Virus record (IMG/VR): IMGVR_UViG_3300046786_000293 | Location: 96,001-160,000 of that record | DNA from: a virus | Taxonomy: Duplodnaviria > Caudoviricetes | Reading direction: 5' to 3' (one strand) | DNA length: 64,000 bases | Shown: one piece after another, positions 23,386 to 23,508 of the stretch | Numbering within the stretch: position 1 is the stretch's first letter | Layout of the letters: the number at the start of each line of letters is the position of its first letter | The notes under the pieces: model-generated | What the model saw: the letters and a program-made list of their open reading frames with translations, nothing else | What the model was told of the DNA's origin: nothing | Database searches by the model: none | Position numbers and translations under genes: made by a program

Positions 23386-23508
23386 AACAGGATACAGTTT
23401 TAAGTGCTCTACCAAATGAGCTAATCAGGCTTGAAGCCTAATGTTGGATTCGAACCAACTACCACTCGCTTATAAGGCGAAAAGGGGTTTGCTGTATGTA
23501 TCCTAAAA
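23386..23508 (-). ncRNA. Family-1 element, copy e, enclosing a circularly permuted tRNA-like domain (YrlA-like order)
   Basis: Order is anticodon arm (UAU), T arm, acceptor closed by UUCAA, D arm, inside AGGAUAC..CAGCAA/GUAUCCUGUU. Confidence 0.75.

What the first reader, a model, noticed from the sequence alone, without database searches (positions are those of the whole stretch)
23386..23508. Circularly permuted tRNA wrapped in the Ro-family stem
The 5'-to-3' order is stem strand plus CAGCAA, anticodon arm (UUCGC-CUUAUAA-GCGAG), T arm (GUUGG-UUCGAAU-CCAAC), acceptor 3' strand AUUAGGC, UUCAA loop, acceptor 5' strand GCCUGAU, D arm (GCUC-AUUUGGUA-GAGC), then the closing strand. The T-acceptor-D order matches YrlA tRNA-mimic Y RNAs (established), but an intact anticodon arm is retained. 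Ligating the ends and opening the UUCAA loop would give a molecule topologically identical to 19500-19617, as in permuted tRNA maturation in red algae (inference).
Basis: partly seen in the sequence, partly recalled or inferred. Interest (0 to 1): 0.85.

Follow-up and report, generated by a model that had tools for sequence, protein, structure and literature searches.

The report
Permuted tRNA-shaped phage Y RNA
Between two tRNA genes of a 338-kb freshwater phage lies a real, conserved small RNA built like a complete tRNA turned inside out and clamped by a short "handle", most likely a partner RNA (a Y RNA) of the phage's Ro60-like protein and not a tRNA gene that is cut and re-joined.

Summary
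The minus strand of 23386-23504 (plus a U-run to 23508) folds exactly as described: terminal stem, CAGCAA, a 5-bp/7-nt anticodon-like hairpin (UAU), T arm, 7-bp acceptor closed by UUCAA, and D arm.

It belongs to a large phage RNA family. I found 87 distinct relatives, 98.7% of their cells are paired, 21 of 23 pairs show compensatory change, and the tertiary 15:48 pair covaries.

All members share one handle: a stem, CAGCAA and a 3' CUGUU. Handle RNAs cluster just upstream of, and on the same strand as, a DUF2828/DUF7788 gene whose model has the Ro60 fold. In relatives the orthologue of this element sits 1.1-1.4 kb upstream of that gene.

The topological claim also holds. Rotating the element gives the architecture of 19503-19617.

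The red-alga-style maturation is not supported:
- there is no bulge-helix-bulge motif;
- the phage has no splicing endonuclease;
- no CCA is encoded;
- the anticodon loop is not conserved (UCU, CAA, or 4-6-nt loops in close relatives).

The element is below threshold for every Rfam family (YrlA 33 bits against 69).

This scan met the same handle-RNA/Ro60-like system before on other DNA (Felix O1-type phages). I found no publication describing it.

The parts
23386..23504 (-). The whole RNA (119 nt): handle plus a circularly permuted, complete tRNA body
   Evidence: 124 bits, the only strong hit of model R1 in the 338-kb genome
23498..23504 (-). Handle, 5' strand of the terminal stem (AGGAUAC). 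It pairs with 23389-23395 and can extend by A-U and U.G pairs
   Evidence: All 7 pairs covary across 87 relatives, 99.8% paired
23489..23494 (-). Invariant single-stranded CAGCAA motif, 3 nt after the stem
   Evidence: Invariant in alignment A2. Shared by six minus-strand modules in the window. Aligns to the 11-nt motif of Rfam Dicty_Class_I_RNA in the sister modules
23465..23481 (-). Hairpin A: 5-bp stem UUCGC/GCGAG with 7-nt loop CUUAUAA, an anticodon-arm look-alike (UAU at 23472-23474)
   Evidence: The stem covaries in relatives (UUCCU/AGGAG, UUGCA/UGCAG, CUAUC/GAUAG) but loop length and 'anticodon' vary
23460..23464 (-). 5-nt variable loop UGGUA. A48 pairs with U15 of the D loop (Levitt pair)
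   Evidence: 15:48 is complementary in 51 of 62 family members against a mean of 24 when shuffled, 0 of 10000 shuffles
23443..23459 (-). T arm GUUGG-UUCGAAU-CCAAC
   Evidence: helix 2, 99.8% paired, 4 of 5 pairs compensatory
23424..23442 (-). Acceptor stem of 7 bp (AUUAGGC/GCCUGAU) closed by loop UUCAA. No CCA
   Evidence: helix 3: all 7 pairs compensatory
23406..23421 (-). D arm GCUC-AUUUGGUA-GAGC with G18 G19, preceded by U8 A9
23386..23395 (-). Handle, 3' strand GUAUCCU plus invariant 3' tail GUU (together ...CCUGUU)
   Evidence: The 3' CUGU is also a conserved end of dictyostelid Class I RNAs (PMC7919456)
23505..23509 (-). AUUUU spacer between the CCA end of tRNA-Trp (23510-23583) and the handle. 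The same tRNA-CCA-N1-2-U4-5-handle arrangement occurs in relatives
12894..14312 (-). Gene of the probable protein partner P0001 (472 aa, DUF2828 + DUF7788, Ro60 fold, vWA with MIDAS motif)
14341..14778 (-). Three tandem handle RNAs directly upstream of the P0001 gene (14341-14396, 14404-14599, 14609-14778)
19503..19617 (-). Sister RNA of opposite topology: a CCA-ending tRNA-Asp-like RNA with the handle closed by a GUUA loop between D arm and anticodon arm
21545..21607 (-). Sister handle RNA whose cargo is a lone anticodon-like stem-loop (loop CUUUUAA)
25179..25235 (-). Sister handle RNA (57 nt) with the same AGGAUAC stem
   Evidence: RF01414 27.2 bits, gathering score 41.5

Best explanation
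The element is a non-coding RNA of about 119 nt, transcribed with the phage's tRNA array and freed by the tRNA-processing enzymes that trim its neighbours. It has two modules. The first is a handle: a terminal 7-9-bp stem, single-stranded CAGCAA, and a 3' CUGUU. The handle is the docking site for the phage's Ro60-fold protein P0001, as the terminal helix of a Y RNA is for Ro60. The second is a cargo: a circularly permuted tRNA body that folds into the tRNA L-shape. As with bacterial YrlA, the cargo probably protects the RNA from nucleases and lets the particle engage tRNA-binding factors. It would act in tRNA or RNA quality control and repair during infection, next to the phage's RNA ligase, kinase and phosphatase genes. 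Shown here: the fold and its covariation, the shared handle, the genomic coupling to the gene, and the Ro60 fold of the protein. Inferred: binding, processing and the biological role. The anticodon-like hairpin is a retained or decaying tRNA part (the nearest tRNA in this phage is Thr-UGU), not a decoding device.
For: Structure: searches show secondary and tertiary covariation in 87 distinct relatives. Layout: the YrlA partial hit covers T arm, acceptor and D arm. Chen et al. 2014 (PMC4201824) describe YrlA with an extra stem-loop upstream of the T arm, D. radiodurans Yrn1 with a 5-bp/6-nt 'anticodon arm', and Y RNAs co-transcribed with tRNAs. Handle: six modules in the window, all on the minus strand, three of them abutting the P0001 gene. 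Across loci, 310 modules lie on the gene's strand against 16 opposite, 280 lie upstream with a median distance of 384 nt, and 61 of 62 gene-anchored loci have a module within 2 kb upstream. The orthologue of this element lies 1.1-1.4 kb upstream of the gene in L039, L012, L014, L016, L017 and L045-L049. Of 9 contigs carrying a permuted module but no gene in the fetched piece, 8 encode DUF7788 elsewhere, against 2 of 9 control tRNA-rich phage contigs. Protein: AlphaFold model pLDDT 93.7. The 12 best PDB matches are all Ro60/TROVE over the full length (E 4e-8 to 5e-6, TM 0.5-0.65), including Ro60 of Thermus phage phiLo. The MIDAS DxSxS motif is invariant. Context: Rnl1-type ligase, AAA_33 kinase and DSP phosphatase at 16562-19177, and directly downstream of the Ro60-like gene in relatives.
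Against: No binding, expression or processing data exist for this RNA. RNA-run contigs barely cover it. In this genome it lies 9.1 kb from the gene, outside the 4-kb criterion of Chen et al. It lacks the GNCGAAN0-1G Ro60 motif of YrlA and fails the Rfam gathering scores. Pfam TROVE does not detect P0001. Dictyostelid Class I RNAs, which share the handle, are reported to bind an RRM protein (Rnp1A) and not Ro60 (PMC7919456). Co-occurrence is confounded by phage relatedness.
Confidence: 0.72

Rival explanations
1. Two-piece tRNA. RNase P cuts 5' of G(+1) at 23430, the 3' side is trimmed and receives CCA from the host enzyme. The two pieces, held together by the handle stem, act as a chargeable tRNA (Ile, reading AUA), analogous to two-piece tmRNA from a permuted gene.
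For: All tRNA parts are present, with a 7-bp acceptor. M. smegmatis YrlA, which has a 7-bp acceptor, is cut by RNase P and receives CCA in vivo (PMC4201824). In 6 of 75 permuted family members an encoded NCCA follows the acceptor 3' strand, where about 1.2 are expected by chance.
Against: This element encodes no CCA, and the closing loop is only 5 nt, or 3 nt if the U-A pair forms. The phage's ordinary tRNA genes checked here encode CCA. The anticodon is not conserved on an otherwise conserved body (UAU, UCU, CAA, or no anticodon loop). The NCCA-bearing members mostly lack an anticodon-like hairpin. The discriminator would be U. A handle protruding between positions 26 and 27 is unknown in decoding tRNAs.
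Confidence: 0.07
2. Bait or decoy. The handle-borne tRNA look-alike displays a genuine anticodon loop to host anticodon nucleases (PrrC, RloC or colicin-type), soaking them up or reporting tRNA attack to the Ro60-like/repair machinery. This is compatible with Ro60-like binding.
For: In family members whose hairpin A is anticodon-like, the loops are canonical (C/U32, U33, A37, A38). The anticodons are UUU, UCU, UAU, UGU, GAU, GUU, GUA, and GUC in 19503-19617. By my own knowledge, several of these belong to tRNAs hit by known anticodon nucleases (Lys, Arg, Asn, Tyr, Asp). One sister RNA is a handle plus a lone CUUUUAA stem-loop. The healing and sealing enzymes are encoded alongside.
Against: Most close orthologues have 4-6-nt loops that cannot mimic an anticodon loop. 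No nuclease is identified. The match of anticodons to nuclease targets is from memory and was not tested statistically.
Confidence: 0.1
3. Red-alga-type permuted tRNA gene. The ends are joined through the terminal helix to give a circular intermediate, which RNase P and RNase Z open in the acceptor loop to yield a mature tRNA-Ile(UAU).
For: The 3' half precedes the 5' half, and the un-permuted sequence is a perfect cloverleaf. An Rnl1-type ligase is encoded nearby.
Against: There is no bulge-helix-bulge motif and no splicing endonuclease or RtcB in the phage. Joining the ends would leave the 40-nt handle inside the tRNA, as in 19503-19617. The same handle also closes RNAs with no tRNA parts. 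The anticodon arm is not conserved. No junction appears in RNA contigs, though this is weak evidence.
Confidence: 0.02
4. The handle serves another factor, not the Ro60-like protein: an RNA-processing or stabilising signal in the tRNA operon, or the site of an RRM-type protein as for Class I RNAs. Linkage to the DUF2828 gene would then reflect shared operon history.
For: Class I RNAs with the same handle bind Rnp1A (PMC7919456). In this genome four of the seven handle-bearing RNAs lie kilobases from the gene, inside the tRNA array.
Against: Modules sit tightly and directionally beside the gene in 61 of 62 loci. Co-occurrence holds in distant contigs whose proteins are only 23-40% identical. 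Y RNAs next to Ro60 genes are the established pattern (PMC4201824).
Confidence: 0.1

Closest known systems
YrlA, the tRNA-mimicking Y RNA of bacterial and mycobacteriophage Ro60/Rsr (Rfam RF02553; Chen et al. 2014, PMC4201824)
   Same: A terminal helix encloses T arm, closed acceptor-like stem and D arm in that order. tRNA tertiary pairs, including covarying 15:48, are kept. An optional extra stem-loop lies upstream of the T arm. The RNA is encoded on the same strand as, and usually just upstream of, a Ro60-fold gene, and is co-transcribed with tRNAs.
   Different: The score is 33 bits against a gathering score of 69. There is no GNCGAAN0-1G motif; the handle is stem + CAGCAA + CUGUU. The protein is DUF2828/DUF7788, not Pfam TROVE. 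In YrlA the terminal helix takes the place of the anticodon stem, whereas here a complete anticodon arm and 5-nt variable loop are kept and the handle leaves between positions 26 and 27, a five-way junction.
M. smegmatis YrlA (RNase P-cleaved, CCA-added) and D. radiodurans Yrn1 (PMC4201824)
   Same: The acceptor stem has 7 bp, as in the one YrlA known to be opened by RNase P. Yrn1 has a 5-bp 'anticodon arm'.
   Different: No processing data exist here. The Yrn1 loop has 6 nt and its arm order differs.
Dictyostelid Class I RNAs (Rfam RF01414; Kjellin et al. 2021, PMC7919456)
   Same: The handle has the same design: a short covarying stem joining the ends, a conserved motif containing CAGCAA next to the 5' strand, and a 3' CUGU. 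Sister modules at 14343-14395 and 25181-25234 align end to end with the model at 30 and 27 bits.
   Different: These scores are below the gathering score of 41.5. Class I RNAs are 42-65 nt, eukaryotic, with their own promoter, carry no tRNA body and are reported to bind an RRM protein. They were reported as absent outside Dictyostelia.
Circularly permuted tRNA genes of Cyanidioschyzon merolae and other algae (from my own knowledge of Soma et al. 2007; reviewed in PMC4090602, listed but not read)
   Same: The 3' half is encoded before the 5' half and every tRNA part is present.
   Different: There is no BHB motif, no splicing endonuclease and no conserved anticodon. Joining the ends would not remove the handle.
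Two-piece tmRNA from permuted ssrA genes (Rfam RF04321)
   Same: A permuted gene for a tRNA-like RNA. Such a gene is noted in this genome by an earlier scan finding, and one scores 82.9 bits in relative L136.
   Different: tmRNA is cut into two pieces, is charged and acts on ribosomes. None of this is shown here.
Handle RNAs beside Ro60-like genes in Felix O1-type phages
   Same: The same system: a Ro60-fold protein, several RNAs with one handle inside a tRNA array, and one of them a permuted tRNA look-alike.
   Different: This is a different phage group (338-kb T4-type freshwater phage). Here the permuted copy keeps a full anticodon arm and coexists with its rotated, CCA-ending counterpart.

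Membership tests
YrlA (RF02553) | T arm, closed acceptor-like stem and D arm, in that order, with tRNA-type conserved nucleotides | tested here: met
YrlA (RF02553) | Score at or above the Rfam gathering score (69 bits) over the whole model | tested here: not met
   33.4 bits over model positions 23-87 of 114 only. No relative reaches it in 122 kb of 12 loci
YrlA (RF02553) | GNCGAAN0-1G Ro60-binding motif near the 5' end (Chen et al. 2014) | tested here: not met
   The 5' end reads AGGAUACAUACAGCAA. The motif is absent there
YrlA (RF02553) | Encoded within 4 kb of a Ro60 (TROVE) gene and on the same strand | tested here: inconclusive
   Same strand but 9.1 kb away here. Orthologues lie 1.1-1.4 kb upstream in relatives. 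The protein has the Ro60 fold but no Pfam TROVE hit
YrlA (RF02553) | tRNA tertiary interactions, with a covarying Levitt pair 15:48 | tested here: met
   51 of 62 complementary, 0 of 10000 shuffles reach this
YrlA (RF02553) | Bound by Ro60/Rsr, and carries tRNA modifications (Psi55, D) | not testable with these tools
   Needs immunoprecipitation and modification mapping
Dictyostelid Class I RNA (RF01414) | Short covarying stem joining the 5' and 3' ends, conserved motif with CAGCAA next to the 5' strand, 3' CUGU | tested here: met
Dictyostelid Class I RNA (RF01414) | Gathering score 41.5 bits, length 42-65 nt | tested here: not met
   The element is 119 nt and gets no RF01414 hit. Sister modules score 27.2 and 30.0 bits
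Permuted tRNA gene (red-alga type) | 3' half before 5' half, and the un-permuted sequence is a complete tRNA | tested here: met
   ARAGORN calls tRNA-Ile(UAU), 76 nt
Permuted tRNA gene (red-alga type) | Bulge-helix-bulge motif formed by the termini | tested here: not met
   A continuous 8-9-bp helix without the two 3-nt bulges
Permuted tRNA gene (red-alga type) | Splicing endonuclease available for the circularisation step | tested here: not met
   No PF01974 and no RtcB in the phage genome. That bacterial hosts lack the enzyme is general knowledge
Permuted tRNA gene (red-alga type) | Anticodon and decoding identity conserved among orthologues | tested here: not met
   UAU, UCU, CAA, or 4-6-nt loops
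Permuted tRNA gene (red-alga type) | Circular intermediate and re-opened mature tRNA | not testable with these tools
   Only contigs of RNA runs were available. No junction was seen

The most novel reading that the evidence does not exclude
The phage builds one RNA design, a tRNA body plus a Ro60-type handle, in every circular permutation. These are acceptor-open with CCA (19503-19617), handle-open (this element), and NCCA-plus-spacer forms in relatives. The handle-open form is opened by RNase P and given CCA. The result is a two-piece tRNA tethered to the Ro60-like ring, with a true anticodon loop. It would serve either as bait for host anticodon nucleases, coupled to the neighbouring heal-and-seal enzymes, or as a chargeable tRNA.
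Probability: 0.12. Interest if true: 0.85.

Novelty: new variant of a known kind. Interest (0 to 1): 0.6.

Why it matters
Y RNAs that mimic tRNA are known for canonical Ro60 in bacteria and mycobacteriophages. What the tRNA module is for remains an open question (PMC4201824).

This phage family offers a natural series of cargos on one handle:
- a full permuted tRNA;
- a tRNA with the handle inserted;
- a tRNA with the handle replacing the acceptor stem;
- a bare anticodon stem-loop.

All sit next to a divergent Ro60 branch and RNA heal-and-seal enzymes, in hundreds of uncultured large phages. That makes two questions directly testable: which tRNA features the particle needs, and whether it acts in the tRNA-cleavage arms race.

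The shared handle also links phage RNAs to the dictyostelid Class I RNAs, whose origin and mechanism are unexplained.

For genome annotation, such elements are missed by tRNA finders and by Rfam at its thresholds.

Tried and rejected
- blastn of 22800-24200 against GenBank phages gave only generic tRNA similarity and no homologue of the element.
- A scan of viral contigs for a T-loop followed by a D arm returned mostly ordinary tandem tRNA genes. A more specific pattern with CAGCAA worked.
- Pfam TROVE was not found in the genome, so the Ro60 relationship had to be tested by fold.
- phmmer against PDB sequences found nothing.
- Literature searches for DUF2828, for YrlA with phage, and for permuted tRNA with bacteriophage found no description of this family.
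- RNA runs were available only as Logan contigs. Four metatranscriptomes barely cover the element and show no back-joined form. The two 'joints' are relatives in which the same handle encloses another cargo.
- A scan for the closed-handle junction (TATCCTGTT..AGGATA) gave 118 chance hits and one real case, L415.
- The protein Atlas gave only viral DUF2828 clusters.
- I rejected a MITE-like DNA repeat. The stems differ between copies with compensatory changes, and 310 of 326 copies are on the transcribed strand.
- I rejected a decayed tandem-tRNA remnant, because of the conservation and the secondary and tertiary covariation.

Full report
WHAT IS THERE

The window comes from a 338-kb phage record. 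It holds about 39 tRNA genes, all on the minus strand. The finding lies 5 nt after the CCA end of tRNA-Trp (23510-23583) and 7 nt before a 92-nt tRNA-like gene (23287-23378).

The minus strand of 23386-23504 reads, 5' to 3':
- a 7-nt stem strand (AGGAUAC), three bases, then CAGCAA;
- an 8-nt linker;
- a 5-bp hairpin with loop CUUAUAA;
- UGGUA;
- a T arm with loop UUCGAAU;
- a 7-bp acceptor helix closed by UUCAA;
- UA and a D arm with G18 G19;
- an A-rich linker, the complementary stem strand, and GUU.

RNAfold returns exactly this as both MFE and centroid structure (-36.5 kcal/mol, z = -4.05). When the two halves are put in normal order, ARAGORN calls a 76-nt tRNA-Ile(UAU). The nearest tRNA of the phage is Thr(UGU) at 24087-24161.

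IS IT MORE THAN CHANCE?

A search for the layout '7-nt stem, N3, CAGCA(A/G)..., complementary 7 nt, GUU' finds six modules in the window, all on the minus strand. By my own rough estimate about 0.2 would be expected by chance.

In loci fetched around homologues of the neighbouring protein, and by pattern scans of viral contigs, the same search finds 394 distinct modules in 189 sources. Of these, 75 contain a T loop followed by a D arm.

A MAFFT alignment of 16 close relatives gives a consensus of four helices: handle, T arm, acceptor and D arm. Compensatory changes occur in 16 of 23 pairs.

A covariance model built from that alignment finds 104 full-length matches, 87 of them distinct:
- 98.7% of cells are paired, against 62.8% when shuffled and at most 43.9% when the partners are slid;
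- 21 of 23 pairs have changes on both sides;
- the covariation score is 0.93 against 0.23.

This alignment is fitted to the model, so the figures lean towards the structure. The slid controls and the independent MAFFT result agree with them.

A tertiary test that does not depend on the model also holds. Position 48 (the base before the T stem) and position 15 (the second base of the D loop) are complementary in 51 of 62 members: A:U 32, G:C 12, U:A 7. The shuffled mean is 24, and 0 of 10000 shuffles reach the observed value. The tRNA-like arms and the L-shape are therefore under selection.

THE PROTEIN PARTNER

Three handle RNAs lie head to tail directly upstream of a 472-aa gene (12894-14312, minus strand). 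Pfam calls the protein DUF2828 + DUF7788, and PHROGs calls it 'RNA-binding protein'. Pfam TROVE does not hit anywhere in the genome.

An AlphaFold model built from 131 diverse homologues has pLDDT 93.7. Its 12 best PDB matches are all Ro60 over the full length: Xenopus, human, Deinococcus Rsr, Thermus phage phiLo Ro60 and a TROVE-domain crystal structure. E-values run from 4e-8 to 5e-6 and TM-scores from 0.5 to 0.65. Isolated vWA domains follow only at E of 3e-3 or worse. The MIDAS motif DxSxS is invariant.

LINKAGE OF HANDLE RNAS TO THE GENE

In loci that hold the gene:
- 310 modules are on its strand and 16 on the other;
- 280 lie upstream, at a median distance of 384 nt;
- 61 of 62 gene-anchored loci with at least 2 kb of upstream sequence have a module within 2 kb;
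- 49 of 55 same-strand permuted-tRNA modules are upstream, 40 of them within 4 kb.

The orthologue of this very element (74-84% identical over its full length) lies 1.1-1.4 kb upstream of the gene in L039, L012, L014, L016, L017 and L045-L049.

Nine contigs carried a permuted module but no gene in the fetched piece. Eight of them, including all five that are at least 90% complete, encode DUF7788 elsewhere. Among nine control tRNA-rich phage contigs, two do.

In this genome the element is 9.1 kb upstream of the gene on the same strand. It is separated from the gene by tRNA genes and an Rnl1-type ligase, an AAA_33 kinase and a DSP phosphatase. In relatives the phosphatase, kinase and HD genes lie directly downstream of the Ro60-like gene.

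Model R1 finds no other permuted copy in the 338-kb genome. All its weaker hits lie in the same 12-kb island.

THE ANTICODON ARM

This is what made the finding stand out. In this phage the hairpin is a textbook anticodon arm followed by a 5-nt variable loop. It is not conserved as such.

On almost the same body:
- L039, L316 and L219 read CUUCUAA (UCU);
- L322 (85% protein identity) reads CUCAAAA (CAA);
- the L012 group has a 6-nt loop;
- L026, L052 and L023 have 4-nt loops;
- L320, the nearest relative I could fetch (91% protein identity), has a 4-bp/4-nt hairpin.

Across 70 parsed permuted modules:
- 8 pass a strict anticodon-loop test (anticodons UCU x3, UUU x2, UAU, GAU, GUA), and several more nearly do (GUU, GAU);
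- 13 have no hairpin;
- the rest have loops of 3-10 nt.

A hairpin at this place is common and its stem covaries, which matches the 'V' stem-loop described for YrlA (PMC4201824). Decoding identity is not maintained. A one-base change (A35 to C35) separates the 'Ile' and 'Arg' versions.

THE TOPOLOGY CLAIM

I opened the element in the acceptor loop and joined its ends. The result is a 114-nt sequence that folds into acceptor stem, D arm, handle hairpin, anticodon arm and T arm at -33.3 kcal/mol. The RNA at 19503-19617 has the same five helices at -33.0 kcal/mol. The two align colinearly with a score of 91, against 19 unrotated, and 0 of 500 shuffles reach that score.

One genome therefore carries the same design in two circular permutations. 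Relatives show further forms:
- In L113 the cargo resembles the 19503-19617 RNA, and GCCA plus a 10-nt spacer sits in the acceptor 'loop'.
- L415 is a CCA-ending tRNA with an AGGAUA-type handle closed by GUUA.

An encoded NCCA follows the acceptor 3' strand in 6 of 75 permuted modules. About 1.2 are expected by chance, a Poisson probability of about 0.002 by my own arithmetic. Most of these modules lack an anticodon-like hairpin.

A tandem duplication of a tRNA-with-handle gene followed by trimming would produce exactly such permuted genes. This is inference.

MATURATION INTO A tRNA?

- The termini form a plain helix, not a bulge-helix-bulge.
- The phage has no tRNA-splicing endonuclease, RtcB or CCA-adding enzyme.
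- The element has no CCA, while the phage's ordinary tRNA genes checked here do.
- The handle also closes RNAs without any tRNA part.
- Joining the ends would leave the handle inside the molecule.

Four metatranscriptome runs could be examined only as contigs. They barely cover the element and show no back-joined form. One contig (X24) carries a relative's D arm to handle 3' strand, and X5 carries the same handle around another cargo.

Opening by RNase P with CCA addition, as shown for M. smegmatis YrlA with its 7-bp acceptor (PMC4201824), remains possible but untested.

COMPARISON WITH KNOWN FAMILIES

The cargo matches YrlA in layout. However, the Rfam hit is 33.4 bits against 69 and covers only the tRNA-like core. 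The GNCGAAN0-1G motif is absent. No module in 12 relatives reaches any non-tRNA gathering score, apart from one permuted tmRNA.

The handle matches the dictyostelid Class I RNA design: a short stem joining the ends, a conserved motif with CAGCAA, and a 3' CUGU (PMC7919456). The sister modules at 14343-14395 and 25181-25234 align end to end with RF01414 at 30.0 and 27.2 bits, where the gathering score is 41.5. Earlier reports of this scan gave me that lead. They describe the same handle-RNA/Ro60-like system in Felix O1-type phages.

Jumbo phages with a ROT/TROVE protein 'and a tRNA-like partner' are mentioned in general terms by Iyer et al. 2021 (PMC7824862). I found no paper describing the CAGCAA-handle family or a permuted tRNA with an intact anticodon arm in phages.

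VERDICT

This is a real, conserved structured RNA. It is most probably a Y-RNA-like partner of a divergent phage Ro60, with a complete permuted tRNA as cargo (confidence 0.72).

The proposed tRNA maturation route is not supported.

It is a new variant of a known kind. It is interesting mainly for the series of tRNA-derived cargos on one handle and for the coexistence of both permutations in one genome.

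Noticed in passing
window 23287-23378 (-): A 92-nt tRNA-like gene with anticodon loop CUUAUAA (UAU), a long variable arm, a short D arm and an encoded CCA. ARAGORN calls it tRNA-Ile(tat), and Rfam tRNA-Sec scores 29.5 bits (gathering score 47). A 98-nt piece (23286-23383) is identical in contigs of two of the independent metatranscriptome runs (X22, X24) despite different flanks; X5 and X23 cover parts of it. Summed contig depth reaches about 500 in run X23.
   Followed up: partly
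window 21545-21607 (-): A 63-nt handle RNA whose only cargo is a 5-bp stem with loop CUUUUAA, a tRNA-Lys-type anticodon stem-loop. Relatives of the same handle lineage (AGGAUCG...) carry D arm, anticodon arm and T arm in natural order, with the handle in place of the acceptor stem: L088 7754-7854, L192 6600-6696, L140 7700-7800.
   Followed up: partly
L012 2722-2838, L039 4915-5032, L074 7088-7205 and about 25 others: A second class of permuted tRNA-like handle RNAs: stem AGGUUC..., D arm GUGU/GCAC, a conserved acceptor loop UUGGUC, and a hairpin with an A-rich 7-nt loop. It sits next to the class found here in many relatives but is absent from this genome.
   Followed up: partly
L113 9803-9933 (-), L183 565-697, L211 6342-6447, L239 6065-6186, L248 6584-6715, L219 2363-2508 (-): Permuted modules in which an encoded discriminator plus CCA and a short spacer follow the acceptor 3' strand. 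This suggests the acceptor is opened in these members.
   Followed up: partly
L415 about 5330-5480 (-): A CCA-ending tRNA (anticodon loop CUGCUAA) carrying an AGGAUA-type handle closed by a GUUA loop between D arm and anticodon arm. This is the rotated counterpart of the class studied here. It is followed at once by another handle RNA.
   Followed up: no
L130 2282-2436, L162 1565-1719: RNAs with the same layout (anticodon-like hairpin, T arm, closed acceptor, D arm) inside a different terminal helix without CAGCAA. They may be canonical YrlA-type or a third handle.
   Followed up: no
L320 11619-14046, L321 4130-6557, L322 11821-13274: In relatives the DSP-type phosphatase, AAA_33 kinase and HD-domain genes lie directly downstream of the Ro60-like gene, an operon-like link between the ring protein and RNA end-healing enzymes. 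In the window the ligase, kinase and phosphatase lie at 16562-19177.
   Followed up: partly
window 23621-23893 (+): A 90-aa ORF on the opposite strand beside tRNA-Trp reads like an HNH endonuclease by eye. HNH genes are called inside the tRNA arrays of relatives L320 and L322. I did not check it with Pfam.
   Followed up: no
handle sequences across loci: The terminal sequence of the handle differs with the protein clade. It is AGGAU.../...AUCCUGUU where the Ro60-like protein is at least 55% identical to P0001, and UAGAC.../...GUCUAGUU or AAGAC.../...GUCUUGUU where identity is 32-36%. This may be co-evolution or shared ancestry. I did not test it on a tree.
   Followed up: no
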